From Escherichia coli (GTDB taxonomy: Bacteria; Pseudomonadota; Gammaproteobacteria; Enterobacterales; Enterobacteriaceae): DNA of 64,000 bases. Positions 6,947 to 33,862 of this stretch are shown one piece after another (positions within the stretch are counted from its first letter, which is position 1; each line of letters begins with the position of its first letter). The translations under genes and the position numbers were made by a program. The stretch lies in assembly GCF_003018235.1 (NCBI RefSeq), contig NZ_CP027437.1; one strand, 5' to 3'. Under the pieces are notes generated by a model. The model searched no databases. It was given only the letters and a program-made list of their open reading frames with translations, and was not told the origin of the DNA.

Positions 6947-9784
6947 TTATTCAAAATAACGTTCAAAGTTATAAGCACTTTGTAATGAGGCCCGCTTACC
7001 CTTTTTAGCTAGATCTATACCACCACTTCTTAAACCCTCATCAAAACTTCCGAGCACATCATAAAAATGTGACATTTCATGAATCAAAGTTATGACTTGT
7101 GAATCACGACCGTCCAGGGGATCGTCAATAAATTTATTTCCAAGATAAATGGTATGGGTATAATCTCCATCATTAACTCTTCCATGAACATTAACATCCA
7201 TAAATTCAAAATTTTGGTACTTAATCCCCTCATTAATTTCAATTTCTTTTTTTACAGCGTTTAAAATTTTATTCCTGGCTGCCTCATCATCAACACCGAA
7301 TATATTTCCAAAACGCTCTTTATCGTTATCATTCCAACGAATCAACTCATCTCTTGCTGATTTTAATTTTTTACGCTGCGCTTCAAGAACAAGTTTCATA
7401 TCATTTTCACTGATCCTTTTCTCCTCTATCATTTCATAAACAGGATTTCCATAATTATCTGTAAGAGGTTTTCCATTATATCCAATTATAGCTACTCCAT
7501 TACCCGGCCCTGATGTAGAAAAATCTCTAATTGTATTAATTTTATATTTACCATTTGCGTCACTACCGCCAGGATTCAGTGCCAAGTGAGTAGGTCCATC
7601 AAGGATGATAGTGCCGTCTGAATTCATCACGAGAGTGCTGCTTCCCACAGTCAACGTAATGTTCGTTGCCGCAGTCAAATGAATGGCACCAGATTTTGAT
7701 GTGATGGTAATATCCCCTTCGACAGTCTCCGTGCAGGTTCCCGTTTCTACCGTCACTTCGCGTTTACCCGTTTTCACCGTCAGAGACTGGTCACCTTCTG
7801 TCACAGTAATATCCCGGTTGCCTTTGATGGTTTCGGTGTGCTTACCCTCAACAAATTCTGTGCGATCGATTTTTACCGTAGATGTTTCGTTATGAATGAT
7901 GGTTTTCGTCCGATCTGCCTTTACCGTGTGTGTTTCGTTATTTTTCACGACGGTATTCAGATCTTTCTCCGCAAGAAACCTCACTTCTTCCGCACCTGTT
8001 TTATCGTCAAAGCGCAGCATGTTTCCGTTGGTCGGCCCGCCATACAGCGAGTGGCTGAATATCCCGCTCTGCGACGCCATGCCCGGCAATCCCCACGGCG
8101 GCATGGTGTCCTGGTTATAGGTGCGCCCTACAATGATCGGTAAATCCGGGTCGCCGTTTTTGAAATCCACCAGCACTTCCTGGCCGATGCGCGGGATCTG
8201 GATCATCCCGAATCCTTTCCCCGCCCACGGGTAGCTGACGCGGATCCAGCAGGAGCTGTTTTCGTCATTCTTTCCGTAACGGTCCCAGCCAAACTGGACC
8301 TTCACCCGGCCATATTTATCCGTCCAGATTTCCTGCCCCGCAGGGCCGGTGACGATGGCGCTCTGCGGGCCTTTGGTGTGGGGTTTGCTCAGGGTTCGCT
8401 GTGGGCGGTAAACTTCGCTGGTGGGATGCAGTTCAAACGTGGTGACATAGGTAAAATGCTGCTCCTGACCGCTGTGCTGCGCATTATCCCGTAAAAACAG
8501 CGTGGTCTGTACCAGTAGGTATTCCTGGTTGACCTCTGCCGTTGGATGATTCATCAGCGTAAAGGTGTAACCCGTCATGAGGGTGCGGATATGACCTGCC
8601 CCATGTGCCCGGCTGCCGGGGCTGCGCTGCGCTTCCATACGAATGCGCGTCAGCATCTCGCCTTCGCCCGTAGTGAAGTAATCACCAGGCCATTCATAAT
8701 GCTCGTATTCAGCATGACCGGTATCACGCGGACTAGCCACGGTACTTTTAAGCAGCGAACGAGGCTTCATAAAATCAAAATCGTCCATCACCCACTTTCC
8801 AGTACGTAGCCTCTCACTGGCCGTAATGGTGTGGATAAATTCCTTGTCCAGTTTCAGACCTTCCTGGTGCCACTCCACCAGTGGCGAGTCAGGGCACGCT
8901 TTATGACCATTGATGGCATCCGCCAGCACCAGCGTATGGCTGTTCTCGCTGTGCTCAAACCACCAGTAAATTCCCCACTCCTGCATCAGGCGCTGGATGA
9001 AATCAAAATCCGTTTCACCGTACTGTACCTGCCAGGCACGAGGTGGATAATTTTCCACCAGCCGTTTTTCCACCGGAAAGGAATATTCATCCAGTACTTC
9101 ATCGAGAATATCCACCACGGTTTTATTCTGGAACGCCTTGTAGTCGCTGGTATGGGTCAGCAGCTTCAGCCATGGCTCAATGCGTAATTCATACGTTACC
9201 GAACGGCCCTCATGGCCGACCACCCGCGCTGCCGTCACCAGCCCGCTGATATACCGTTTTTCGCCACCGTCCAGTTCAATACTGACGCACAGGTCTTTGC
9301 CCACCATGGGCTGAAGCGGCAGGTTGGCAGCGGGAGAAACGTAACCCAGGTTCAGGATGTCCGGCGTTTTAAGCTGTACTGTGTAGGAAAACAGATTCCC
9401 AAGTCCTTCCGAACCATTCATGCCTGCAAACAAAAGCAACTGCGGCGGCACCGCGCTACCACTTACTGTGACGTTATGCGCCCCCGGACCACCGGCTGCA
9501 AGCGACGACGCCGCATCCTGAACTGTACCAGCCATATCCGAGATCCCTACTGCAGCAGCGGCAGCCTGCGCAGCAGTTACTGCAGCTTTAACCAGACCTG
9601 ACGGTTCCGGCAACGCACCAAACAGGTCCGCCGCGGCCTGTTCTGCCATCTCCTCGGCGGCACCAGATACATCGGTTACGGCTGAACTGGCGCTTACAGC
9701 ACTACTTTCTCCGGCTATCGGTGGCGTGGAGATAGCTGGCCCACCGTTACTGCCAGATTTATTACTCGTAGATACAAAACTCAT
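6947..9784 (-). CDS. vgrG: VgrG (TssI) spike protein, 'evolved' type, with an AT-rich C-terminal extension containing an HExxH motif
   Basis: 945 aa. gp27-like region ([25 protein letters not shown]), gp5 OB-fold and beta-helix repeats (VKVQFGWD..., TVKxxR repeats). C-terminal about 180 aa is low GC and contains LIHEMSHF. Good SD (AAAGGA) upstream of the ATG at 9784. Confidence 0.9.
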
Positions 9785-20820: not shown

Positions 20821-21192
20821 TCATTTCTTAACACTCCTGGAAATCAACTCATCCAATTCATTTCCATGAATGAAATCTATACATTTCATAGTACTGAAGT
20901 CTGATGCTATAGAACCATCATATTTTAATGATGCATATTTTCTCGCTATCGCATCTATTTCACGAAAAATTTCTACAGGTTGCTGACCATATTCAAGATA
21001 AGCACTAGCTGTAGCTCTGGCATCATCCTGAACGACATCATTTTTATACACCAATGACAAACAATGACTCAAAGCCCAATTGCGTAAGAGCTCTGACTGA
21101 GAATATTTTTCAGTCAATGCTTCCTGAGCATAAGATAATTGACATATCTGTAGCCCACAGAGGCCCCAAAATATTAATTTCAGCCATTTCAT
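20821..21192 (-). CDS. tai4: Tai4-like periplasmic immunity protein
   Basis: Signal peptide (MKWLKLIFWGLCGLQICQLSYAQE); start ATG overlaps the tae4 stop (ATGA), suggesting translational coupling. Confidence 0.6.
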   Translation of the reverse strand: MKWLKLIFWGLCGLQICQLSYAQEALTEKYSQSELLRNWALSHCLSLVYKNDVVQDDARATASAYLEYGQQPVEIFREIDAIARKYASLKYDGSIASDFSTMKCIDFIHGNELDELISRSVKK

Positions 21193-21674
21193 GGTAGTAC
21201 CCACAGGATTCCGACTTCAGGAACAAATGTTCCATTATCTGGATCATTTAGTAGATGGCATTGATCTGAACAAACGCTACCATTCCATAATGTTACATGT
21301 CCCCGAGCATTGCTCCAGCCATGGCCTTTTACAACAATGATGCCTTTTTTACCTGTAAAGTCACCAGGAGTTGGATTATTAATGACAAGATCTGGCTTCC
21401 CCATAATCTGGGTCAGATGTTCAATCATATCATTCACACGATAAATATAAAATTTCTTATCAGAACCACTAACCGTTGCATAGGGAGAACTACGGGATAT
21501 CGGAAATCCCGTAGCATTCAAAACATAACTCATACGAATTGGACAAGCATTTTCAAAATAGCCACCTGAAATATTTTGCCCAACATTTCCGCCAATTATA
21601 AGACCGACATCAGCAACGGGAAAATTCACTTTTCCAAATGCCGACCATGCCTCATTAAATGAAGGTCTACCCAT
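21189..21674 (-). CDS. tae4: Tae4-family peptidoglycan amidase effector
   Basis: 161 aa; Cys44 (ENACPIR) and His126 (ARGHVTLW) are positioned as I recall for the Tae4 catalytic dyad; AT-rich; followed by a signal-peptide protein. Confidence 0.65.
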   Translation of the reverse strand: MGRPSFNEAWSAFGKVNFPVADVGLIIGGNVGQNISGGYFENACPIRMSYVLNATGFPISRSSPYATVSGSDKKFYIYRVNDMIEHLTQIMGKPDLVINNPTPGDFTGKKGIIVVKGHGWSNARGHVTLWNGSVCSDQCHLLNDPDNGTFVPEVGILWVLP

Positions 21675-21726: not shown

Positions 21727-23241
21727 TCAGGTATTACCCTGTTTTACCGACGGCAGTTTTGTGACCAGACGCAGTGATCCTGTTAACCCTTCAAGCTGAA
21801 AATGCGGGCGCAGGAAGAATTTGGCATCGTAATAATCCGGATTACCTTCCACCTCTTCCACCACCACTTCAGCAGCTGCCAGTGGGCGACGAGCTTTGGT
21901 TTCCTGTGAGGAGTTCACCGGATCGGCATCGACGTAGTTCATGATCCACTCATTGAGCCAGCGCTGCATATCTTCACGCTCTTTGAACGAGCCGATCTTG
22001 TCGCGCACGATACATTTGAGGAAGTGCGCAAACCGTGAACAGGCGAAAAGATATGGCAAACGAGCTGAGAGATTGGCGTTGGCCGTAGCGTCCGGATCGT
22101 AATACTCCTGCGGTTTTTGTAGAGACTGAGCGCCAATAAAGGCGGCGTAATCAGAGTTTTTGCGGTGGATAAGTGGGATAAAACCATTTTTCGCCAGTTC
22201 AGCTTCACGACGGTCAGAGATGGCAATTTCTGTCGGGCATTTCATATCCACGCCGCCGTCATCGGTCGGGAAGGTATGACAGGGCAGATTTTCCACCGCG
22301 CCACCAGATTCAACACCGCGGATCAACGTACACCAACCGTAATGTTTGAAAGAGCGGTTGATATTTACACCCATTGCATAGGCGGCATTGCTCCAGACAT
22401 ATTTGCTGTGATCTGCGCCATCCGCATCTTCTTCAAAATCAAACTCATCGACAGGGTTTGTTTTCGCACCATAAGGCAAACGGGAGAGAAAACGTGGCAT
22501 CGTCAGGCCAATGTAGCGAGAATCCTCACTTTTTCGCAGCGAGTTCCACGGTGCGTATTCGAGGTTTTGGGTCACAATTTTGGTCAGATCACGCGGGTTA
22601 GCCAGTTCCTGCCAGGAGTCCATCTGCAACACTGACGGAGAGGCCCCAGCAATAAACGGCGCATGGGCTGAGGCTGCCACTTTGGCAATGGAGCCGAGCA
22701 GATCCACATCCGGTGGCGTGTGATCAAAATAATAATCCGCAATGATACAACCGTAAGGTTCTCCGCCTAACTGTCCATATTCAGCTTCATAAAGCTTTTT
22801 GAACATGGGGCTTTGATCCCAGGCGATCCCTTTGTAACGCTTCATATTTTTCCGCAATTCATCCTTTGAAAGATTCATAAAACGGATTTTTAATTTTTCA
22901 TCGGTTTCAGTGTTGTAAACCAAATGTTCCATCCCACGCCAGGAGGACTCCAGTTTCTGAAATTCCGGATGACTCAGGATTAGTTTGATCTGCTCAGTTA
23001 ATTTGAAATCGATCTGCTCAATAATCGCAGCAATACTTTTATAAGCGTCGTCACTGACGGTGACGGTATTTGTCAAAGCCTGTTGGGCCAGCGTCTGAAC
23101 TGCTGCCTCAACAGCCTTTGCTGCCTGAGGTGTCTTGGGACGGAAGGCTTTATCCAGGAGCGAATCAAATTCAGTGTCCTGATAGGCAGTGGTTTGCGCA
23201 GCAGAGAGTTCGCCAGTCGCCAGAAGAGTATCGTTTACCAT
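21727..23241 (-). CDS. tssC: TssC (VipB) sheath large subunit
   Basis: 504 aa; conserved TssC sequence throughout. Confidence 0.92.
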   Translation of the reverse strand: MVNDTLLATGELSAAQTTAYQDTEFDSLLDKAFRPKTPQAAKAVEAAVQTLAQQALTNTVTVSDDAYKSIAAIIEQIDFKLTEQIKLILSHPEFQKLESSWRGMEHLVYNTETDEKLKIRFMNLSKDELRKNMKRYKGIAWDQSPMFKKLYEAEYGQLGGEPYGCIIADYYFDHTPPDVDLLGSIAKVAASAHAPFIAGASPSVLQMDSWQELANPRDLTKIVTQNLEYAPWNSLRKSEDSRYIGLTMPRFLSRLPYGAKTNPVDEFDFEEDADGADHSKYVWSNAAYAMGVNINRSFKHYGWCTLIRGVESGGAVENLPCHTFPTDDGGVDMKCPTEIAISDRREAELAKNGFIPLIHRKNSDYAAFIGAQSLQKPQEYYDPDATANANLSARLPYLFACSRFAHFLKCIVRDKIGSFKEREDMQRWLNEWIMNYVDADPVNSSQETKARRPLAAAEVVVEEVEGNPDYYDAKFFLRPHFQLEGLTGSLRLVTKLPSVKQGNT

Positions 23242-23265
23242 GAAAGTTCCTTAATAAAATCGCAG

Positions 23266-23811
23266 TTAGTCTGCTGTTCCCGTTTCACCTGATAAGACAC
23301 TTTCCTGTTGAGCGACAGGTTTTGGCGCACTAGCCAGAGCTTTCAGTAACGTAGGGTCTTGTAATAGTTTGTTGATAAGATTTTCTGCTCCCGCTTTACC
23401 ATCCATGTAGGTTTGTAGGTTGGCAAGCTGAGTACGCGCTTCCAGCAGCTGGTTCAGGGCATCCACCTTACGGGCAATCTGCGCAGGCGAAAAATCGTCC
23501 ATATTCTCTAACGTGATATCGACCATTAACTGCCCTTCGCCCGTCAGCGTATTGGGGACAGCAAACGCCACGCGCGGCGCAATGGCTTTCATCCTCTCGT
23601 TGAAGTTATCGATATCAATATCAAGGAATTTACGATCGGTGACCGGCGGCAGCTCTTCACGCGGTTTACCCGCCAGGTCGGCCAGCACCGCCATGACAAA
23701 CGGCAGTTCGATTTTTTTCTCGGAGCCGTAAATCTCAACGTCATACTCAATCTGCACGCGGGGCGCGCGGTTGCGGGCAATAAACTTCTGCGCGCTGTTG
23801 TTGATAGCCAT
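23266..23811 (-). CDS. tssB: TssB (VipA) sheath small subunit
   Basis: 181 aa; MAINNSAQKFIARNRAPRVQIEYDVEIYG... is typical of TssB. Confidence 0.92.
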   Translation of the reverse strand: MAINNSAQKFIARNRAPRVQIEYDVEIYGSEKKIELPFVMAVLADLAGKPREELPPVTDRKFLDIDIDNFNERMKAIAPRVAFAVPNTLTGEGQLMVDITLENMDDFSPAQIARKVDALNQLLEARTQLANLQTYMDGKAGAENLINKLLQDPTLLKALASAPKPVAQQESVLSGETGTAD

Positions 23812-24741: not shown

Positions 24742-26223
24742 TTAATCCGTTTCAAAAATAATCTGTTCATCCTCATCAACACGAATGCGGATTTGCGTGA
24801 TGGCCGTTTTCTCTGTCATCGCCTGCAACCAATAACGGGACAGTTGTGGGAGGATATGTTGTTCGATATAGCCGATGAGCAAACGAGCGCCGGTTTCGTG
24901 CATCGGGCAGCGCGACACAATATGCGTAATCAGTTCATCGCCATACACCAGTGAAACGCCATGCTGCTCCGCCATCCGATCCATCAATCTGCCAAGATGC
25001 AGGCGGGCAATAACACCACGCGCGGTCTCATCCAGCGGTAAATAAGGAATAACCGTCACACGCCCCAGGAAAGCCGCCGGGAAGTGTTTACGTAACTCCG
25101 GCATTAACGCCTCTTTTAGTCCTGCCGAATCAGGCATCAGCGCCGGATCCTTTTCGATATGGCGTTTGTACTCGCTCCAAGTGGTTGCGCCGATGGTGCG
25201 CAGGGTGCCACGCGCCAGCGCCGGTTTCAGCAGGTTGGCAGCATCCCCCGTACCGGATGTACCACCAGCGCCCACCAGCGTGTGAACTTCATCAACAAAA
25301 AGGATTACCGGCTGCGGCGAGCGCGCGGCCTCTTCTAGCAACGCTTTCAGGCGGGATTCAAATTCACCCTTCATGGACGCCCCAGCCAGCAGCGCTCCAA
25401 CATCCAGTGACAGCAACCGCACGTTACGCAGTGAAGGCGGTACTTCCCCCCCGGCAATCGCCAGCGCGAATCCTTCCACCACTGCCGTTTTCCCGACTCC
25501 CGCTTCGCCGGTCAGTAGCGGGTTGTTCTGGCGACGGCGCAGCAGAATATCCGTCATAGTACGGATCTCGTGTTCGCGACCGGTGACCGGATCGATATTG
25601 CCTTCACGGGCCAGCGCAGTCATGTCCTGGCAGTATTTCGCCAGCGCGGATTTGCTTCCGGTTGATTCGCCGGCAAAGACCTGGCTAGCTTCCCCCGGTA
25701 CTGCAGAATTTAAATCCGAGCCGTCATAAGGCATTTCTGTTAATTCAGGAGATGAAGTGATTAAAGACGGAAGAATATCTAATAGTTCATCTACCGGTAG
25801 CTCTGCCAATGGCGCACAAATATTTTTTAACACCCGACACAATTCTGGCGTGGTTAACCAGGCAAGTAATAACCATCCACTACGAATTTTTTTATCGCCA
25901 AAGCGGATACTTGCCAACATCCAGGCTTTTTCAACAGAAAGATCGATATGATGGGAAAAATCGTTAATTACACTCGCTCCGGCAGGCAATATATTCAATT
26001 GCTGAATTAACGCCTTCTCAACATCAGCAGATGTTATTTGATAATGTCGAAGCACATTGTGAATGTCATTCTCTGGTTGTTGTATTAACTGATGCAACCA
26101 ATGCGTCAGTTCGACATAAGGATTAGCGCGTAATTTACAGAACGTCGTCGCAGATTCCAAAGATCTAAACAAAGATTTGGTTAGCTTTCCATACAGTGCA
26201 CTGCGCGAAACAGGAGTGTCCAT
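24742..26223 (-). CDS. clpV: ClpV (TssH) AAA+ ATPase with an apparent in-frame internal deletion (N-domain plus first ATPase domain joined to the C-terminal small domain)
   Basis: 493 aa against about 850-900 expected. Walker A GEAGVGKT and Walker B ILFVDEVH of the first domain run to ...IEKDPAL, joined directly to ...[24 protein letters not shown]...GARLL..., the ClpB/ClpV C-terminal signature. Confidence 0.8.
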
Positions 26224-26555: not shown

Positions 26556-27470
26556 ATGAAACCAAATATTACGTGGGGACTCCAAAAAATACAGGCGCAC
26601 GGGATCGCCGATAACACAATTTACGCGACTGAAGGAACCCAAATTATCTTCACCGTTACCTCACCCTGGATTCCTGTTTTTGAGGTGAATGATGATGTAA
26701 AGATTGCCCTCAGTCTGACCCGCCACGAAGAAGCATGGTGGATTATCAATCAGTCTACCGAATATTGCTGTACGGTAAACGACCAGATTGTGGAACCTCA
26801 TCACCGTATGCGTCTGAATGAAGGCGATCTGATAGAATGGGGGTTATCTTCATGGTGCCTTGTGCACGGCAATCCATCATCTCCGGACCTGAGCGCAGTA
26901 AATACGACATCGCAGACTGCCACCATGTCGGAAACAATAACCGAATATCTGGATCTGGATTGGTTCAGGCAGCAGCATCTGACATCACAAAATCCATTCG
27001 ATATCATTCCTGTTCATGGAGCCTCCTCCACTGGAGAAGATGCTAAAAAAGAAAATGCCCTGACTCGACTTTATCAGGAATACCGCGAGGCGTTGTTATC
27101 TCCTGAACAAGATCTTCATCGCCATGCTGATCCTTTTCCCTTTAACGAAGAGCCCTCCTCACAGGATCTGGATTCATTGCGTGATCTGGTCACTGAAGCC
27201 GAGACATTGCAGGATATGGTCACTGGCGGGTTAAGCATTGACGCTATTCTCGATGTCCTGGACGCCACCGGCGAAGGGGAAACCGCCTGGCCTGCCGAAA
27301 AGACGCCCCCAGATATCCTGCACCTGCTATCCCCGGAATGCGCACCGGAAACAGCGCATAACACCGTTCTACCCGACCTGACACGCAAAGAGCATCGCAT
27401 CATTGGCATTGACAGCCATTATCGGATAAACCCGGCACAACACGGAGAGATATCTCATGACAAACAATAA
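26556..27470 (+). CDS. T6SS-associated protein, possibly FHA-domain (TagH-like)
   Basis: 304 aa; first gene of the plus-strand operon; N-terminal region has a weak FHA-like pattern; C-terminal half is acidic and low complexity. Confidence 0.4.
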   Translation: MKPNITWGLQKIQAHGIADNTIYATEGTQIIFTVTSPWIPVFEVNDDVKIALSLTRHEEAWWIINQSTEYCCTVNDQIVEPHHRMRLNEGDLIEWGLSSWCLVHGNPSSPDLSAVNTTSQTATMSETITEYLDLDWFRQQHLTSQNPFDIIPVHGASSTGEDAKKENALTRLYQEYREALLSPEQDLHRHADPFPFNEEPSSQDLDSLRDLVTEAETLQDMVTGGLSIDAILDVLDATGEGETAWPAEKTPPDILHLLSPECAPETAHNTVLPDLTRKEHRIIGIDSHYRINPAQHGEISHDKQ

Positions 27471-28287
27471 CGAGCTACCGGCTACCCTGTCGGCGCTGCT
27501 GCGGGATTATTCCGTGGCGGAGGGCATTCAAATGGCAGAGCAGCAGGTCAGGATGCACCCGGCGCAGGCCTCCCGCCGCCACAGCTTATTTCAGTTATTG
27601 TGCGTGGCAGGCTACTGGTCGCGGGCACTGCAACAGATCCAGCTATGCGCCCGGATGGACGCAAATTATACCCGCGAAGCGCAGGTATTTGGCGAGCTGA
27701 TACGCTGTGAGATATACCGCCACGCCTGCTTTCAGGGAGAACAGCGGCCCGATTTTATTCTCCCGCCGCCCGCCTGGATGGAGGATCTGCTGACCGCCCT
27801 CGCCTGTAACGCTCGTGGTGAAGCGCAGGAAGCTGACGCCCACCGCAGCCGCGCACTTGAGGCCATAACAGATACTGCAGGGCAGTGGAATGGCGGCGCA
27901 TTTGACTGGATTAGCGACAGCGACTCCCGTACCGGTCCGGTACTCGAACTCATCGCGGGCGGAGTATATATCTGGCTGCCGTTTTCACAAATCTGTTCGC
28001 TAAAATCGCCGCGGCCTGCGCATCTGACCGATTTGATCTGGAAACCCGTCAACGTCACACTGAATAATGGCGACACACACAGTGCCTGGCTGTTTTCCCG
28101 CTACAGCGGCTCTGAAAAGGCTGCCGACTCCCTGCGTCTGTGCCGGGAAACGGTCTGGCAGGACGGGCCGGGAGAGACTCTGGTACAGGCGCTGGGTCAG
28201 AGGGTGTGGCTCACCGGTCACGGCGATATCAGCCTGCTGGATTTGTCCACCTGTACCTTTAACACCGCTGAAGGAAGCGACGCGTGA
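27457..28287 (+). CDS. tagJ: TagJ (ImpE-family) T6SS accessory protein
   Basis: 276 aa; LFQLLCVAGYWSRALQQIQL, FDWISDSDSRTGPVLELIAGGVYIWLP and SRYSGSE match conserved ImpE/TagJ blocks (recalled). Confidence 0.8.
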   Translation: MTNNNELPATLSALLRDYSVAEGIQMAEQQVRMHPAQASRRHSLFQLLCVAGYWSRALQQIQLCARMDANYTREAQVFGELIRCEIYRHACFQGEQRPDFILPPPAWMEDLLTALACNARGEAQEADAHRSRALEAITDTAGQWNGGAFDWISDSDSRTGPVLELIAGGVYIWLPFSQICSLKSPRPAHLTDLIWKPVNVTLNNGDTHSAWLFSRYSGSEKAADSLRLCRETVWQDGPGETLVQALGQRVWLTGHGDISLLDLSTCTFNTAEGSDA

Positions 28288-28778
28288 GCGCTTCCCGCCA
28301 GCGTCCGGGCAATCACCTGCTGCCCACGCTGTTTGACCGCCTGTGTGATGATGCCCCAAACCAGAAACGCGACCACGATATCAGCGTCAGCCCGGTTCAG
28401 CTTAAGGAGATCATTCGCCGGGATTTGTCATTTCTGCTCAACACCGTCAGCCATGAAGATGATATTGATGCTGCACGTTATCCGGACGCGGCAGCGTCCG
28501 TACTGAACTACGGCCTGCCGCCACTGGCGGGCAGCTTTCTGTATGAACACAAGTGGGACGATATTCGCAGGGCCATTTTGCGTACCATCATCCGGTTTGA
28601 ACCCCGGCTGAAAGCGTCCACCCTGCAAATCATCCCACTTCAGGATGAGCGCCACCAGAGCGGCCATAACACATTACAGTTTGAAATTCGCGGCGAGATC
28701 CTCACGCAGCCCTACCCGATGGCATTCCGGGTACGCAGCGCGCTGGATATGGAACAGAGCCGCATTACGTTTTTTTAA
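28284..28778 (+). CDS. tssE: TssE (gp25-like) baseplate protein
   Basis: 164 aa; the PTLFDRL motif is typical of TssE. Confidence 0.88.
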   Translation: MSASRQRPGNHLLPTLFDRLCDDAPNQKRDHDISVSPVQLKEIIRRDLSFLLNTVSHEDDIDAARYPDAAASVLNYGLPPLAGSFLYEHKWDDIRRAILRTIIRFEPRLKASTLQIIPLQDERHQSGHNTLQFEIRGEILTQPYPMAFRVRSALDMEQSRITFF

Positions 28779-28793
28779 TTCAGAGAGAAACCG

Positions 28794-30677
28794 ATGGATC
28801 CACGGCTACTGGAATACTACAACCGCGAACTGAGCTATCTGCGGGAAACGGGAGCCGAATTTGCCGCCCGTCATCCTAAAGTCGCCGCCCGACTGGGTAT
28901 GCAGGGAACGGATATTGCCGATCCGTATGTGGAGCGAATGGTCGAGGCCTTCAGCTTCCTGACCGCCCGCACGCAGCTAAAAATTGACGCTGAATTCCCC
29001 CGTTTCACCCAGCGTCTGCTGGAAGTGGTCAGCCCCAATTACGTCACACCCACGCCCTCAATGAGCGTGGCGCAGCTTCATCCCGATCCGGAAGAAGGCG
29101 ATCTGGCGAAGGGATTCACCGTCCCGCGCAACACGGCCTTTTTTTCCGCCATTCCGGAAGGCGAAAGTACCGCCTGCCAGTTTCGTAGCAGCCAGAATGT
29201 GACGCTGTGGCCACTTGCCATCGAAGAGGTGCGGCTGACCGCCGCGCCGCCGGATATGCCTGCCCTGCACCGCTACCTGCCAGCCAACATTCACGTCGCT
29301 GGTGCGCTGCGTATTACCCTGCGCACCTTTGGTGAACTGACGTTCAGTCAGCTTGCAGGGCTGAACAAGCTGCCATTTTATCTCTGCGGCGAGGAGCGCA
29401 CGGCCTCACACCTGTTCGAACTACTGCATACCAGCGCCATCGCGAGCCTGGCTGGCATTCCGGGGCATTTTGACGGCGCACTGGATGTGAATCTGAAACA
29501 GCCCGTTATGTACGAAGGCCTGGATCCGGATCAGGGACTGTTGCCGCTGGCGTGGAATGTGTTTCACGGCCATAACCTGCTACATGAATATTTTACCTGT
29601 CCGGAACGCTTCTTTTTTTTCACCCCGACAGGCCTGTCTGCCGGGTTACAGAAAATTAACGGCGGCGTGGCGGAGATTGTTATCCTGCTGAACCGCCTGC
29701 CGCCGGACTGGCTGATCCACCAGACAAACGCGGCACAGTTCAGCCTGTTCTGTACCCCAGTTATCAACCTGTTTCCCCGCGTCGCCGCCCGGATCGATGT
29801 CACGCACAGCACGACGGAACAGCATCTGGTGGTGGACAGAACCCATCCGCTGGATTATGAGGTGTTCTCGGTCCAGGAAGTGGAAGGGCTGGAAACTGAC
29901 ACCACACGGAAGATGGCCTTTCGCCCGCTCTACCACACCCGCAATAATGATGAAGGCAATCACGGACGTTATTTTTCCCTGCGCCGGGAGCCGCGCCGGT
30001 TGTCGGAAAATGCCCGCCGCTATGGCACCCGCACCTCCTATACAGGATCAGAAGTGTTCCTGTCGCTGGTTGACCAGTATGAAGCGCCGTACCCGGAAAA
30101 TCTGCGCCATATCACCATCACGGCTATGGTCACCAACCGCGATCTGCCCTGTCTTATTGCCCGCAATGGACGGGACGATCTGACCGTGGATGCGGCCATC
30201 CCGGTGGCGGGCGTGGGGCTTATCCGTCCGCCGCGTCCGCCGCAGCCTCCGCTGGCTGAACGTGAAATGGCCTGGCGGTTGATCCGCCAGTTATCCTTTA
30301 ACTATCTGCCGCTGGCCGATCTGGATCACCGTACCGGTGGTCAGGCGCTGCGCGATCTGCTTAACCTGTTTATTCCGGCGCATGACAGTCCGCAGTCGCG
30401 CCAGGTGCGCAGCCTGATTGGCTGCAACACCACCCCGGTCACCCGCCGTCTGCCCGGTTCCGGGCTGCTGGTCTATGGGCGCGGCGTCAGTTGTGAACTG
30501 ACCGTGGATGAGGAGGGGTTCTCCGGTATCAGTCCGTATCTGTTCGGTCTGGTGTTGGAGCACTATATCGCCCGTCATGTTTCCATTAATACCTTCTCGC
30601 AGATGACGCTGCACAGCATGCAGCGCGGCAAAATTATGACCTGGCCTGCCAGGGCGGGACAGCGGGGAAGCGTATGA
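28794..30677 (+). CDS. tssF: TssF baseplate protein
   Basis: 627 aa; MDPRLLEYYNRELSYLRETGAEFAARHPKVAARLG is a typical TssF N-terminus. Confidence 0.92.
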   Translation: MDPRLLEYYNRELSYLRETGAEFAARHPKVAARLGMQGTDIADPYVERMVEAFSFLTARTQLKIDAEFPRFTQRLLEVVSPNYVTPTPSMSVAQLHPDPEEGDLAKGFTVPRNTAFFSAIPEGESTACQFRSSQNVTLWPLAIEEVRLTAAPPDMPALHRYLPANIHVAGALRITLRTFGELTFSQLAGLNKLPFYLCGEERTASHLFELLHTSAIASLAGIPGHFDGALDVNLKQPVMYEGLDPDQGLLPLAWNVFHGHNLLHEYFTCPERFFFFTPTGLSAGLQKINGGVAEIVILLNRLPPDWLIHQTNAAQFSLFCTPVINLFPRVAARIDVTHSTTEQHLVVDRTHPLDYEVFSVQEVEGLETDTTRKMAFRPLYHTRNNDEGNHGRYFSLRREPRRLSENARRYGTRTSYTGSEVFLSLVDQYEAPYPENLRHITITAMVTNRDLPCLIARNGRDDLTVDAAIPVAGVGLIRPPRPPQPPLAEREMAWRLIRQLSFNYLPLADLDHRTGGQALRDLLNLFIPAHDSPQSRQVRSLIGCNTTPVTRRLPGSGLLVYGRGVSCELTVDEEGFSGISPYLFGLVLEHYIARHVSINTFSQMTLHSMQRGKIMTWPARAGQRGSV

Positions 30678-31669
30678 GCGACGATTTCACTCAGGCGCAG
30701 GAAACCCCCTGGCGTTACGGTTTTCTGAACCTGATGCGCCGCGTGGATGTGCAGTTGTGTACCGTTCCGGCAGGCAACACCTGGCAACCACGGATGGAAA
30801 AATTTCGCCTCGGACAAACTCCCGCGCTGACCTTTGCGCCACGGGAAATCGCCAGTGTGAGCTGGCAGGAAGAGCGGCTGCACATCAGTTTGTACAGTCT
30901 CGGGCTGTGGGGGCCGAACGGTCCACTGCCGCTGCACTACACCGAACTGGCGCGCAACCGGACTGAAAGCCGAAGAGACCCGACGCTAACCCGTTTTTCT
31001 GATCTTTTTCATCACCGCTGGCTGACGCAGTTTTACCAGGCATGGCGCAGCGCCCAGTCCGCTGGGGGCGGTCTGGATAAACCACAACATGACCGTTTTG
31101 CCTTTTATATCGCCAGCCTCAGCGGGCAGGATTTGCGGGAGAGCGCCGACAGCCCGTTGCCGGATCACGCTCGCCTGGCGGCATCGGCCCATCTGGTGCG
31201 TGAGTCCCGCAATCCGGACGGTCTGGCCACCACGCTGGCGCACTATTTCGGTGTACCTTTCCGGATACAGGAGTATGTCCTGCACTGGATAGCCGTGGCG
31301 GACGATGAGATCACCCGGCTGGGGATGCCAGCCCCCTCTTCCGTTATTGGCAACGGTGCACTCATCGGCCAGGCCGTGCCGGACATGCAGTATAAGTTCC
31401 GGCTGGTTATCGGCCCGCTGACGCTGGAGGATTACCGACGTTTTCTGCCTGGCGGCAATAACCTGCCAGTCCTGACAGAACTGGTCCGCGCCTTTAGCGG
31501 TTTTGAATACTGCTGGGAAATTGAGCTACAGCTAAAGCCCCACGCCGCCCCTCCGGCTGTTACCGGTGGTTCGTACCAACTGGGCTGGACCGCATGGGCG
31601 GGTAAAGCCATGCACGAAAACCCGGTGACGGGCATGATTTTCGAACCAGAACACTACCTGGCGCACTGA
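30674..31669 (+). CDS. tssG: TssG baseplate protein
   Basis: 331 aa; overlaps the tssF stop; typical TssG sequence. Confidence 0.9.
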   Translation: MSDDFTQAQETPWRYGFLNLMRRVDVQLCTVPAGNTWQPRMEKFRLGQTPALTFAPREIASVSWQEERLHISLYSLGLWGPNGPLPLHYTELARNRTESRRDPTLTRFSDLFHHRWLTQFYQAWRSAQSAGGGLDKPQHDRFAFYIASLSGQDLRESADSPLPDHARLAASAHLVRESRNPDGLATTLAHYFGVPFRIQEYVLHWIAVADDEITRLGMPAPSSVIGNGALIGQAVPDMQYKFRLVIGPLTLEDYRRFLPGGNNLPVLTELVRAFSGFEYCWEIELQLKPHAAPPAVTGGSYQLGWTAWAGKAMHENPVTGMIFEPEHYLAH

Positions 31670-31679
31670 GGATAATTTA

Positions 31680-32726
31680 ATGGATACATCCCTGTCTGAC
31701 CCAATTTCGGCAGAATGCCCCTGCGGCCCGGATCTGGAGTACGATCCGGAATACCTGCTACTGTTCACGCGCGCCGCACCGCGTGAAGAAGCGCAATACG
31801 GCGATTTTGTCAGTACGCCGGAAACCATTAACTGGGCGGAGCTTGAGCGGGATGCCTGCCGACTGCTGACGCGCAGCAAAGATATCCGCATTCTGGTTGT
31901 CCTGCTGCGCTGCCGTATCCAGCAGGCCGGTGCCAGGGGACTGGCGGAGGCGCTCGCGCTGCTGGAAACGTTGTGCGCCACGTACCCGAACGCCATCCAT
32001 CCTCAACTGCTCGCGACTGAAGATATCACCGCCGAAGAGGCGGCAGTGGCACGTAGTAACGCCCTGGCGGCATTGCTGGACCATGAAGGCGTAATAGCGG
32101 ATATTCGTGGCATTACACTGTCAAACAATGCTGCCATACGCCTTCAGGTACGGGATGTGGAGCGTTCGCTGTCTGCATCACGCCCGGCGGATGCGCTGGC
32201 ACCAGAATCGGTACGCCAGCAACTGGCCGACCTGGAGGCGCGCGGCACACTGCCGCTGGATGCCTTTCGCCAGGCCGCAGAGACCACTGAGCGGCTGCAA
32301 CGCCATGCGCTTGAAACGCTGAATGACCAGGCACCGAACCTATCCCGTCTGACACAATTGCTGGCCCTGTTGCCGGGAGCGATACGGACCACCACGCCGG
32401 AGATCCTGCCACAACCAGTGGCTGAACAGCCGGAGAGCACCACCATCGTTCATACTGAAGAGATATCATCAGAGCAGATTGCGCTACCGGTGCATATCGC
32501 GGAGGAAATATCACCGATGTCCGGCGCAGAACCCCGGCAGATCCGCGACCGGAACGACGCGCTGGAACGCCTGCGTGTCATCCGTCGCTGGTTTGAGCAC
32601 AGCGAACCGAGCAGCCCGACCATTCCTTTGCTGCGCCAGGCAGAACGCCTGGTCGGAAAACGCTTCTCGGAGGTAATAAATGAAATTCCAGTAGAACTGC
32701 TGGAAAAATGGGATGCGCTGGAGTAA
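31680..32726 (+). CDS. tssA: TssA-family protein (ImpA N-terminal domain)
   Basis: 348 aa; the N-terminal AECPCGPDLEYDPEY motif is typical of ImpA_N; shorter than many TssA proteins. Confidence 0.75.
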   Translation: MDTSLSDPISAECPCGPDLEYDPEYLLLFTRAAPREEAQYGDFVSTPETINWAELERDACRLLTRSKDIRILVVLLRCRIQQAGARGLAEALALLETLCATYPNAIHPQLLATEDITAEEAAVARSNALAALLDHEGVIADIRGITLSNNAAIRLQVRDVERSLSASRPADALAPESVRQQLADLEARGTLPLDAFRQAAETTERLQRHALETLNDQAPNLSRLTQLLALLPGAIRTTTPEILPQPVAEQPESTTIVHTEEISSEQIALPVHIAEEISPMSGAEPRQIRDRNDALERLRVIRRWFEHSEPSSPTIPLLRQAERLVGKRFSEVINEIPVELLEKWDALE

Positions 32727-32765: not shown

Positions 32766-32857
32766 AATCATATTCGTTTTACTTGCGGAGTGAAAAATTC
32801 TCGCTTCACCAAAACGACGAAAGCCCGAATCAGTAATGATTCGGGCTTTCTGAATAT

Positions 32858-32934
32858 TGGCGGAACGGACGGGACTCGAACCCGCGACCCCCTGCGTGAC
32901 AGGCAGGTATTCTAACCGACTGAACTACCGCTCC
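32858..32934 (-). tRNA. aspV: tRNA-Asp (GUC)
   Basis: Reverse complement gives GGAGCGGTAGTTCAGTCGGTTAGAATACCTGCCTGTCACGCAGGGGGTCGCGGGTTCGAGTCCCGTCCGTTCCGCCA; lies next to dnaQ as in K-12. Downstream hairpin at 32821-32848. Confidence 0.97.
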
Positions 32935-33066: not shown

Positions 33067-33798
33067 TTATGCCCGCCAGAGGCAGCTTCCCCCCTTCTTC
33101 TGCACCAGATCGAGACGGGCTTCATGTGCTGCAAGCTCTTCATCTGTCGCAAAAACAACGCGTAACTTACTTGCCTGACGCACAATGCGCTGAATTGTTG
33201 TTTCATCTTGTTGCTGTTGTGTCTCTCCTTCCATCGCAAAAGCCATCGACGTTTGCCCACCAGTCATCGCCAGATAAACTTCCGCAAGGATCTGGGCATC
33301 GAGTAATGCCCCGTGCAACGTTCGTTTACTGTTATCTATTTCGTAGCGGGCACATAACGCATCGAGGCTGTTGCGCTTACCGGGAAACATTTTCCTCGCC
33401 ACCGCAAGGCTATCGGTGACCTTACAGAAGGTATTGGTCTTCGGAATATCGCGCTTAAGCAACGAAAACTCGTAGTCCATAAAGCCGATATCGAACGCTG
33501 CGTTATGGATCACCAACTCCGCGCCGCGAATATAGTCCATGAACTCATCGGCTACTTCGGCAAACGTGGGCTTATCGAGCAAAAATTCATCGGCAATACC
33601 ATGTACGCCAAAGGCTTCCGGATCCACCAGCCGATCGGGTTTGAGATAAACATGGAAGTTATTGCCCGTCAGGCGACGGTTCACCACTTCAACGGCACCA
33701 ATCTCAATGATCTTGTGGCCTTCATAGTGCGCGCCAATCTGGTTCATACCGGTAGTTTCGGTATCGAGAACGATCTGGCGTGTAATTGCAGTGCTCAT
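33067..33798 (-). CDS. dnaQ: DNA polymerase III epsilon subunit (3'-5' proofreading exonuclease)
   Basis: [19 protein letters not shown]... matches DnaQ; 243 aa from this start. Confidence 0.95.
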
Positions 33799-33862
33799 AG
33801 CGGTCATTTATGTCAGACTTGTCGTTTTACAGTTCGATTCAATTACAGGAAGTCTACCAGAG

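What the first reader, a model, noticed from the sequence alone, without database searches (positions are those of the whole stretch)
31680..32726. Short TssA-family protein (348 aa)
The ImpA_N motif (CPCGPDLEYDPEY) is present, but the protein is shorter than the roughly 470-530-aa TssA proteins I recall. It may be a short TssA/TagA-type cap protein or a C-terminally divergent form. TssA is required for sheath polymerisation in characterised systems.
Basis: partly seen in the sequence, partly recalled or inferred. Interest (0 to 1): 0.3.

Follow-up and report, generated by a model that had tools for sequence, protein, structure and literature searches.

The report
Ordinary short-form TssA of T6SS
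The 348-residue protein is a normal, full-length member of the known "short TssA" class of type VI secretion proteins, the same kind as Pseudomonas aeruginosa TssA1, so its length is standard for this kind of system.

Summary
The ORF is real: window 31680-32726, + strand, 348 aa, with the CPCGPDLEYDPEY motif at residues 13-25 and Pfam ImpA_N at E 3e-30. It is not a truncated or odd TssA.

It belongs to the short TssA class, called the TssA1 clade, TssA_S or class C "TsaB" in different papers. That class is reported as 340-380 aa.

- It aligns end to end with P. aeruginosa H1-T6SS TssA1 (344 aa; hhalign probability 100%, E 4.6e-40).
- It has the two-domain layout of that clade: Nt1 residues 1-237, a disordered linker at 239-284, and a small C-terminal domain at 291-346.
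- It carries the invariant EPSSP signature of subclade A.
- Its model matches both solved domains of Burkholderia cenocepacia TssA.
- Relatives that align end to end have median lengths of 351, 357.5 and 343 aa in three samples.
- It sits last in a tagK-tagJ-tssE-tssF-tssG-tssA operon. This operon has the same gene order as Salmonella SPI-6 and lies at the same aspV/dnaQ site.
- TagJ, the known partner of short TssA, is encoded in the operon. No TagA or second ImpA_N protein is in the window.

Interest is low.

Side observation: the neighbouring clpV/tssH carries a strain-specific in-frame deletion of 384 codons.

The parts
31680..32726 (+). tssA gene, 348 aa, short-form TssA (TssA1-A / TssA_S / 'TsaB' class)
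   Evidence: ORF. ImpA_N E 3.4e-30. TIGR03363 matched along its whole length, 6-338 of 353. End-to-end hhalign to the P. aeruginosa TssA1 family, E 4.6e-40.
31668..31672 (+). GAGGA ribosome-binding site overlapping the tssG stop codon (31667-31669), 7 nt before the ATG; suggests co-translation within the operon
   Evidence: Read directly from the sequence.
31680..32390 (+). Nt1 domain (residues 1-237), helical; contains ImpA_N (residues 7-133 = 31698-32078). Inferred to be the sheath-docking domain.
   Evidence: AlphaFold2 model, block pLDDT mostly 80-95. The Foldseek top hit is 6hs5, the B. cenocepacia TssA Nt1 domain: E 1e-6, target-normalised TM-score (TMt) 0.66, 260 columns. The profile hits 6hs5 at E 2.3e-11. 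The sheath-docking role of Nt1 is taken from PMC11106082.
32394..32531 (+). Interdomain linker (residues 239-284), variable in sequence and length, predicted disordered
   Evidence: pLDDT below 50 for residues 239-284. Unconserved, gap-rich columns in the alignment of 34 relatives. Matches the 40-60 aa linker described for TssA1 (PMC6232143).
32544..32723 (+). C-terminal domain (residues 289-348), four short helices. Inferred to be the ring-forming oligomerisation domain.
   Evidence: Helices 291-308, 314-324, 329-335 and 338-346. The profile hits the B. cenocepacia TssA CTD, 6h8e, at E 2.9e-5. Foldseek hits 6h8f_B (TMt 0.72, rmsd 2.2 A) and 6hs6_B. Many invariant columns.
32604..32618 (+). 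EPSSP motif (residues 309-313), the EPSxP signature of TssA1 subclade A
   Evidence: Invariant E309 P310 S311 S312 P313 in 34 relatives. EPSSP is present in 88 of 90, 81 of 114 and 104 of 107 end-to-end relatives. The motif is defined in PMC6232143.
27457..28287 (+). tagJ (ImpE family), accessory partner of short TssA proteins
   Evidence: Pfam ImpE E 6.9e-41. Matches P. aeruginosa HsiE1/TagJ1, PDB 4uqx, at E 1.6e-48. The TagJ1-TssA1 interaction is reported in PMC4969574 and PMC7896307.
26556..31669 (+). Upstream genes of the same operon: tagK (26556-27470), tagJ, tssE (28284-28778), tssF (28794-30677), tssG (30674-31669)
   Evidence: NCBIfam equivalog hits for TagK, TssE, TssF and TssG. RefSeq annotation of near-identical loci. 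Same gene order in Salmonella and Burkholderia.
21727..23811 (-). tssC (21727-23241) and tssB (23266-23811), the sheath subunits that TssA is expected to dock on
   Evidence: NCBIfam TIGR03355 and TIGR03358. 71% and 73% identity to P. aeruginosa H1-T6SS TssC1 and TssB1.
32858..32934 (-). tRNA-Asp (aspV), the island boundary; dnaQ follows at 33067-33807
   Evidence: ARAGORN. Annotation of relatives. Salmonella SPI-6 has the same flank (PMC2907695).

Best explanation
This is the full-length tssA core gene of a P. aeruginosa H1-like, Salmonella SPI-6-like type VI secretion system. The system sits at the aspV tRNA locus of an E. coli chromosome. The protein belongs to the short TssA class (TssA1 subclade A of Dix et al., TssA_S of Bernal et al., class C 'TsaB' of Schneider et al.).

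Shown here: it has a roughly 237-residue helical Nt1 domain containing ImpA_N, a disordered linker of about 45 residues, and a C-terminal domain of about 60 residues with the EPSSP motif. It is collinear with P. aeruginosa TssA1.

Inferred from characterised members: the C-terminal domains oligomerise into a large ring that displays the Nt1 domains at its edge. The Nt1 domains dock specifically on the cognate TssB/TssC sheath. The ring contacts baseplate proteins (TssE/F/K), Hcp and VgrG, recruits TagJ, and so starts and stabilises sheath-tube polymerisation from the baseplate. No TagA distal anchor is involved.
For: - Domain content: ImpA_N E 3.4e-30. The short-TssA model TIGR03363 matches along its whole length, whereas the long-TssA model TIGR03362 matches only the N-terminus.
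- Homology to the characterised protein: the profile of 34 relatives aligns with the P. aeruginosa TssA1 family over 336 columns, residues 3-348 against 5-344, at probability 100% and E 4.6e-40. The same profile gives 150.5 bits in a single domain against P0390. P0390 is 344 aa and is encoded in the H1-T6SS cluster.
- Architecture: the AlphaFold2 model shows Nt1 at 1-237, a linker with pLDDT below 50 at 239-284, and a CTD at 291-346.
- Fold: the only significant PDB match is the B. cenocepacia TssA1-B Nt1 domain (6hs5). The CTD matches 6h8f, 6h8e and 6hs6 at Foldseek probability 0.99-1.00, and by sequence profile at E 2.9e-5.
- Motif: EPSSP is invariant.
- Length: end-to-end relatives have medians of 351, 357.5 and 343 aa, and none carries a WEP motif.
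- Context: TagJ is encoded in the operon. The window holds no other ImpA_N protein. The order tagK-tagJ-tssEFG-tssA is conserved in Salmonella SPI-6 and Burkholderia. TssB and TssC are 73% and 71% identical to their H1-T6SS counterparts.
- Literature for mechanism and class definition: PMC6232143, PMC4969574, PMC6745524, PMC7896307, PMC11106082.
Against: - The protein scores 145.8 bits on NCBIfam TIGR03363, below that model's equivalog cut-off of 160.85. This probably explains why RefSeq names it 'TssA' in some genomes and 'ImpA family' in others.
- Plain BLASTP against P. aeruginosa TssA1 aligns only the first 125 residues, at 37% identity. Full-length homology appears only at profile level, at 27% identity.
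- No oligomerisation, interaction or localisation was tested here.
- The literature disagrees on whether short TssA proteins stay at the baseplate (PMC6745524, PMC4969574) or travel with the distal sheath end (PMC6232143, PMC11106082).
- In this strain clpV is damaged, so the system may not be fully functional.
Confidence: 0.9

Rival explanations
1. It is a truncated or decaying long TssA (the TssA2 / TssA_L type of 470-540 aa) that has lost its Nt2 and VasJ-type C-terminal domains.
For: It is about 130-190 residues shorter than long TssA proteins. The neighbouring clpV does carry a deletion, so the island shows some decay.
Against: The C-terminal 60 residues are the most conserved part after ImpA_N, and they match the short-TssA CTD by sequence and by fold. 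The alignment to TssA1 runs to the last residues. Dozens of genera have proteins of the same length. Only 131 bp separate the stop codon from aspV, which leaves no room for a remnant. There is no hit to a VasJ-type domain or to the C-terminal part of TIGR03362, and no WEP motif.
Confidence: 0.01
2. [quoted passage not shown]
For: TagA proteins also begin with ImpA_N (PMC6745524).
Against: There is no hydrophobic or membrane-binding segment; the maximum 19-residue hydropathy is 1.06. It is the only ImpA_N protein in the window, so a TagA here would leave the system without its core TssA. TagA co-occurs with long TssA in groups 1 and 2, not with TagJ-containing systems (PMC7896307). The protein is homologous end to end with TssA1.
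Confidence: 0.02
3. It is a short TssA of subclade B (the B. cenocepacia TssA / P. aeruginosa TssA3 type) rather than subclade A. This would imply the 32-subunit D16 ring and no TagJ pairing.
For: The only solved structures it matches are those of the B. cenocepacia protein. Burkholderia species encode close relatives, at 43% identity.
Against: The motif is EPSSP (EPSxP, subclade A), not EP(H/Q)SP (PMC6232143). The profile scores 150.5 bits against P. aeruginosa TssA1, compared with 46.8 and 26.8 bits against the two B. cenocepacia fragments. TagJ is encoded in the operon, as in the H1-T6SS. No subclade A structure exists in the PDB, so a match to subclade B structures is expected in any case.
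Confidence: 0.06

Closest known systems
Pseudomonas aeruginosa TssA1 (PA0082, H1-T6SS; TssA1-A / TssA_S / class C 'TsaB')
   Same: Nearly the same length, 344 against 348 aa. Collinear end to end at profile level. Same Nt1-linker-CTD layout. Same HEPSSP core in the CTD. Both clusters encode TagJ, TssE, TssF and TssG and lack TagA. The sheath proteins are 71-73% identical.
   Different: Only about 27% identity overall, and BLASTP detects only residues 9-133 at 37%. The gene position differs: here tssA is last, after tssG, whereas in H1 it comes first, before tssB. The ppkA/pppA/fha-type regulators that flank tssA1 in H1 were not looked for here.
Salmonella enterica SPI-6 T6SS ImpA/TssA (351 aa)
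   Same: 70% identity over the full length. Identical operon order tagK-tagJ-tssE-tssF-tssG-tssA. Same chromosomal site next to aspV and dnaQ-rnhA (PMC2907695).
   Different: Different host species, and small linker indels. To my knowledge the SPI-6 protein itself has not been characterised biochemically; this was not checked.
Burkholderia cenocepacia TssA (TssA1-B; PDB 6HS5, 6H8E, 6H8F, 6HS6)
   Same: Same two-domain short-TssA architecture. The model superposes on its Nt1 domain (TMt 0.66) and its CTD (TMt 0.59-0.72). The sequence profile detects both domains.
   Different: Its motif is EPHSP rather than EPSSP. Identity is 20-30%. It belongs to subclade B, which Bernal et al. report often lacks a TagJ or TagB partner. 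Whether the 32-mer D16 ring applies to subclade A is unknown.
   Same: Shares only the ImpA_N part of Nt1.
   Different: Long TssA proteins are 470-540 aa, have an extra Nt2 domain and a VasJ-type CTD with a WEP motif, form 10-12-mer rings, and pair with TagA (PMC6232143, PMC6745524, PMC7896307). None of these features is present here.

Membership tests
TssA family (T6SS core component with ImpA_N) | N-terminal ImpA_N region (PF06812) | tested here: met
   Residues 7-133, E 3.4e-30, 105 bits against a cut-off of 26.9.
TssA family (T6SS core component with ImpA_N) | Encoded within a T6SS core gene cluster | tested here: met
   tagK, tagJ, tssE, tssF and tssG lie upstream. tssH, tssB, tssC, hcp, tssJ, tssK, tssL, tssM, vgrG and a PAAR-Rhs gene lie on the other strand.
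Short TssA (TssA1 clade / TssA_S / class C 'TsaB') | Length of about 340-380 aa (PMC11106082) | tested here: met
   348 aa. End-to-end relatives have median lengths of 351, 357.5 and 343 aa.
Short TssA (TssA1 clade / TssA_S / class C 'TsaB') | Two domains: Nt1 of about 250 aa, a variable linker of 40-60 aa, and a conserved CTD of 60-75 aa (PMC6232143) | tested here: met
   The model shows Nt1 at 1-237, a disordered stretch at 239-284, and a CTD at 291-346. The conservation pattern agrees.
Short TssA (TssA1 clade / TssA_S / class C 'TsaB') | EPxxP signature in the CTD; EPSxP for subclade A | tested here: met
   EPSSP at residues 309-313, invariant in 34 relatives.
Short TssA (TssA1 clade / TssA_S / class C 'TsaB') | Full-length homology to a characterised member (P. 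aeruginosa TssA1) | tested here: met
   hhalign probability 100%, E 4.6e-40, 336 columns. 150.5 bits in a single domain. The reference protein was verified to lie in the H1-T6SS cluster.
Short TssA (TssA1 clade / TssA_S / class C 'TsaB') | Fold of the Nt1 and CTD domains as in the solved short TssA | tested here: met
   Foldseek: 6hs5 at E 1e-6, TMt 0.66; 6h8f_B at TMt 0.72; 6hs6_B at TMt 0.59. The query is a predicted model with mean pLDDT 77.
Short TssA (TssA1 clade / TssA_S / class C 'TsaB') | Paired with a roughly 30-kDa TagJ or TagB partner, with no TagA (group 3 pattern, PMC7896307) | tested here: met
   TagJ is at 27457-28287. There is no second ImpA_N protein in the window.
Short TssA (TssA1 clade / TssA_S / class C 'TsaB') | The CTD forms a ring oligomer, the protein binds TssBC and TagJ, and it is required for sheath assembly | not testable with these tools
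   Needs biochemistry and genetics. Inferred only from PMC4969574, PMC6232143 and PMC11106082.
NCBIfam TIGR03363 (VI_chp_8) equivalog model | Score at or above the curated cut-off of 160.85 bits | tested here: not met
   145.8 bits, although the match spans 6-338 of the 353 profile positions. This is a threshold of one curated model, not a biological feature. It means this SPI-6-type branch is a divergent branch of the class.
Long TssA (TssA2 / TssA_L / 'TsaC') | Nt2 middle domain plus a VasJ-type CTD with a WEP motif; 470-540 aa | tested here: not met
   TIGR03362 matches only the N-terminus, at 64 bits against a cut-off of 230. No further Pfam domain is found. There is no WEP motif. PDB long-TssA chains match only the ImpA_N part.
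TagA ('TsmA', class B) | ImpA_N followed by a hydrophobic, membrane-associating region; accompanies a long TssA | tested here: not met
   Maximum 19-residue hydropathy is 1.06. It is the sole ImpA_N protein in the window.

The most novel reading that the evidence does not exclude
The SPI-6-type branch of short TssA is only about 27% identical to P. aeruginosa TssA1, falls below NCBI's equivalog threshold, and its gene is placed after tssG rather than before tssB. It might therefore form a ring of different stoichiometry, or act at a different position (distal sheath end rather than baseplate), than the two characterised short TssA proteins. The E. coli system that carries it appears to be a T6SS subclass that the 2025 E. 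coli T6SS survey I read (PMC12282107) does not list. That survey names only i1, i2 and i4b, whereas this system is H1/SPI-6-like.
Probability: 0.1. Interest if true: 0.3.

Novelty: already known. Interest (0 to 1): 0.07.

Why it matters
It matters little as a discovery. The result removes a false anomaly: a 348-aa TssA is what an H1/SPI-6-type T6SS should have.

It is useful for annotation. RefSeq names this protein inconsistently, as 'TssA' in some genomes and 'ImpA family' in others, because it scores just below the TIGR03363 cut-off.

It also flags two minor facts about the surrounding island:
- About 3% of complete E. coli genomes (170 of 5426) carry this tssA gene of an SPI-6-like T6SS, with its short TssA and TagJ. 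The E. coli T6SS survey I read does not list this subclass.
- The copy in this window has a damaged ClpV ATPase.

Tried and rejected
- Direct phmmer search against PDB sequences found only the N-terminal ImpA_N matches. The CTD match to 6h8e was non-significant at E 0.09. It became significant, at E 2.9e-5, only with the profile of 34 relatives.
- Plain BLASTP against P. aeruginosa TssA1 aligned only 125 residues. Profile-profile comparison was needed to show collinearity.
- The databases are not searchable by name, so I used a from-memory approximation of PA0082 purely as bait to obtain the P. aeruginosa TssA1 sequence. An exact look-up of the bait failed. A homology search with it retrieved real P. 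aeruginosa proteins. One of these, P0390, was verified by its genomic context to be the H1-T6SS TssA1. No conclusion rests on the recalled sequence.
- The 1.84-billion-protein representative search did not list the P. aeruginosa representative among its best 150 hits. It was used only for the length and motif statistics.
- Truncated long TssA: rejected (see rivals).
- TagA-like protein: rejected (see rivals).
- A second TssA or TagA elsewhere in the window: none was found in a six-frame HMM scan.
- The promoter and terminator scan gave nothing beyond shuffle expectation, apart from a 14-bp-stem hairpin on the - strand at 32819-32850, just downstream of aspV. That hairpin probably belongs to the tRNA gene.
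- I did not build a formal phylogeny to assign the cluster to subtype i3. That assignment rests on TagJ, the short TssA, 71-73% TssB/C identity to H1-T6SS, and the literature.

Full report
**1. Observation**

It runs from an ATG at 31680 to a stop ending at 32726 on the + strand and encodes 348 aa. The quoted motif CPCGPDLEYDPEY is at residues 13-25. Pfam ImpA_N matches residues 7-133 with E 3.4e-30.

A GAGGA ribosome-binding site at 31668-31672 overlaps the stop codon of the preceding gene, 7 nt before the ATG. Relatives from other genera begin with the same residues, so the start is well supported.

**2. Where the gene lies**

The window is an E. coli chromosome. The gene is 99% or more identical to genes annotated 'type VI secretion system protein TssA' or 'ImpA family type VI secretion system protein', and it is present in 170 of 5426 complete E. 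coli genomes.

It is the last gene of a + strand operon, tagK-tagJ-tssE-tssF-tssG-tssA (26556-32726). On the other strand are tssH, tssB, tssC, a Tae4/Tai4 effector-immunity pair, hcp, tssJ, tssK, tssL, tssM, tagF, vgrG and a PAAR-Rhs gene.

Immediately downstream are the aspV tRNA-Asp (32858-32934) and dnaQ. Salmonella enterica has the same operon order at the same aspV/dnaQ site. Its TssA is 351 aa and 70% identical. That site holds the SPI-6 T6SS (PMC2907695). Burkholderia stagnalis also has the same operon order, with a 371-aa TssA at 43% identity.

**3. Is 348 aa unusual?**

No. I checked three independent samples of relatives that align end to end with the family profile.
- Close relatives from the word-indexed search: 90 proteins, median 351 aa.
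- Representatives at 50% identity from an exhaustive HMMER search of 1.84 billion proteins: 114 proteins, median 357.5 aa. That search found 760 proteins at E of 1e-30 or lower.
- Pseudomonas TssA1-like proteins: 107 proteins, median 343 aa.

The few proteins of 450 aa or more have extra sequence before the TssA-like part or carry unrelated Pfam domains, so they look like fusions or mis-called genes.

The literature states that TssA proteins come in a long form (470-540 aa) and a short form (340-380 aa) (PMC11106082, PMC7896307). P. aeruginosa TssA1 is 344 aa (PMC4969574).

**4. Class assignment**

Dix et al. (PMC6232143) define the TssA1 clade by three features. These are an Nt1 domain of about 250 aa containing ImpA_N, a variable linker of 40-60 aa, and a conserved CTD of 60-75 aa with an EPxxP motif. 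The motif is EPSxP in subclade A (P. aeruginosa PA0082) and EP(H/Q)SP in subclade B (B. cenocepacia). All three features are met here.
- The AlphaFold2 model (mean pLDDT 77, pTM 0.62) has a confident helical domain at 1-237. It has a stretch with pLDDT below 50 at 239-284 and a four-helix CTD at 291-346.
- The alignment of 34 relatives shows the same pattern of conserved, variable and conserved regions, with invariant W304 F305 E306 and E309 P310 S311 S312 P313.
- EPSSP is present in most end-to-end relatives (88 of 90, 81 of 114 and 104 of 107), and none has the WEP motif of long TssA proteins.

**5. Comparison with characterised proteins**

I retrieved the P. aeruginosa protein from the database, using a remembered approximate sequence only as bait. 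P0390 is 344 aa, is named TssA of P. aeruginosa, and was seen on more than 1000 contigs. It lies between fha/tssJKLM and tssB-tssC-hcp-tagJ-tssEFG-clpV-vgrG, which is the H1-T6SS, so it is TssA1.
- BLASTP aligns only residues 9-133, at 37% identity.
- The profile-profile comparison of the two families is collinear from residue 3 to 348 against 5 to 344. It gives probability 100%, E 4.6e-40 and 27% identity. The CTDs align as ...DRNDALERLRVIRRWFEHSEPSSPTIPLLRQAERLV... against ...NREDVLRQLDRLLEYYVRHEPSSPVPVLLKRAKTLV....
- The family HMM scores P0390 at 150.5 bits in one domain.

Among solved structures, the only significant fold match of the model is the Nt1 domain of B. cenocepacia TssA (6hs5; E 1e-6, TMt 0.66 over 260 columns). 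The CTD matches 6h8f, 6h8e and 6hs6 at Foldseek probability 0.99-1.00 and TMt 0.59-0.72. The sequence profile also detects both domains, at E 2.3e-11 and 2.9e-5.

Long TssA structures (6rju, 6riu, 6g7b) match only within ImpA_N. The NCBIfam long-TssA model TIGR03362 matches only the N-terminus.

**6. Context as a test**

Bernal et al. (PMC7896307) report two patterns. Long TssA proteins (groups 1 and 2) usually come with TagA. Short TssA proteins (groups 3-5) come with 30-kDa partners, TagJ in group 3. They also report that TagJ1 binds TssA1.

Here the operon encodes a TagJ: Pfam ImpE at E 6.9e-41, and P. aeruginosa HsiE1/TagJ (PDB 4uqx) at E 1.6e-48. A six-frame HMM scan of the whole window finds no other ImpA_N protein, so there is no TagA and no second TssA. 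The protein has no hydrophobic segment. TssB and TssC are 73% and 71% identical to those of the H1-T6SS. This fits the same T6SS subtype, though I did not build a formal tree.

**7. Likely mechanism (inferred from homologues, not tested)**

- The CTDs oligomerise into a ring. The ring is a 32-mer in B. cenocepacia (PMC6232143), was reported as a dodecamer for P. aeruginosa TssA1 (PMC4969574), and is unknown here.
- The flexible linkers hold the Nt1 domains at the periphery.
- Nt1 docks specifically on the cognate TssBC sheath (PMC11106082).
- The protein contacts baseplate, tube and spike components (PMC6232143) and recruits TagJ (PMC7896307). In this way it starts and stabilises sheath-tube polymerisation.
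- Whether short TssA stays at the baseplate (PMC6745524) or moves with the distal end (PMC6232143, PMC11106082) is unsettled in the literature and cannot be decided here.

**8. Caveats**

The protein scores 145.8 bits on TIGR03363, below the equivalog cut-off of 160.85, although the match covers the whole model. This Enterobacteriaceae/Burkholderiales branch is therefore a divergent branch of the class. That is also the likely reason for the inconsistent RefSeq product names. The structure is a prediction.

**9. Verdict**

The TagA alternative is rejected. The protein is a standard, already annotated short TssA. Interest is low.

**10. Side observations**

- The clpV/tssH gene (24742-26223, - strand) encodes 493 aa instead of 877. 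An in-frame 1152-bp deletion joins the D1 and D2 AAA+ modules at a 15-bp repeat encoding ...DPAL. This leaves one Walker A/B set. No complete E. coli genome in the collection carries this junction.
- The VgrG (945 aa) has a weak C-terminal Aspzincin_M35-like match.
- The ARAGORN 'tRNA-His' call inside tssF is presumably spurious.
- A 2025 survey of E. coli T6SSs lists only subclasses i1, i2 and i4b (PMC12282107). Even so, this H1/SPI-6-like tssA gene is present in about 3% of complete genomes.

Noticed in passing
window 24742-26223 (- strand), junction near 25137-25151: tssH/clpV encodes 493 aa instead of 877. An in-frame 1152-bp (384-codon) deletion lies between two copies of a 15-bp repeat (GGATCCGGCGCTGA, encoding the ...DPAL motif of the D1 and D2 AAA+ modules). 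It leaves a chimeric single-AAA+ protein with one Walker A/B set, which scores 576.8 bits against the TIGR03345 cut-off of 884.95. The junction is absent from all 5426 complete E. coli genomes searched. It is either a strain-specific loss of the sheath-recycling ATPase or an assembly collapse.
   Followed up: yes
window 1-32934 (whole island up to aspV): The island is an SPI-6-like, H1-like T6SS with a short TssA, TagJ and TagK, and TssB/C 71-73% identical to P. aeruginosa H1. It sits at the same aspV/dnaQ site as Salmonella SPI-6. Its tssA gene is present in only 170 of 5426 complete E. coli genomes. A 2025 large-scale E. coli T6SS survey lists only subclasses i1, i2 and i4b (PMC12282107), so this subclass seems under-reported for E. 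coli.
   Followed up: partly
window 20821-21674 (- strand): A Tae4 amidase effector (21189-21674) and Tai4 immunity gene (20821-21204) lie between tssC and hcp. E. coli 06-00048 has different genes, BPSL0067-family and STY0301-family, in the same slot. This looks like a variable cargo slot.
   Followed up: partly
window 6947-9784 (- strand): The VgrG is 945 aa, against 737 aa (2214 bp) in strain 06-00048. It has a C-terminal extension with a sub-threshold Aspzincin_M35 metallopeptidase match at residues 819-944 (28.5 bits against a cut-off of 30). It may be an 'evolved' VgrG with an effector domain.
   Followed up: no
window 30460-30553 (+ strand): ARAGORN calls a 94-nt 'tRNA-His' inside the tssF coding sequence (28794-30677). 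It is presumably a false positive.
   Followed up: no
L002 17246-18562 and L001 9080-15275: Related E. coli islands show other kinds of decay. These are a tssL pseudogene with an internal stop in strain 06-00048, and an hcp pseudogene plus IS3/IS66 insertions that split tagK in strain HCP5S3_I2. The island seems to be eroding in several lineages.
   Followed up: no
window 32819-32850 (- strand): A 14-bp-stem GC-rich hairpin followed by a T-rich tail lies just downstream of aspV (tRNA-Asp, 32858-32934, - strand). It sits in the 131-bp gap between the tssA stop codon and the tRNA. It is probably the aspV terminator and possibly also ends the tssA operon.
   Followed up: no
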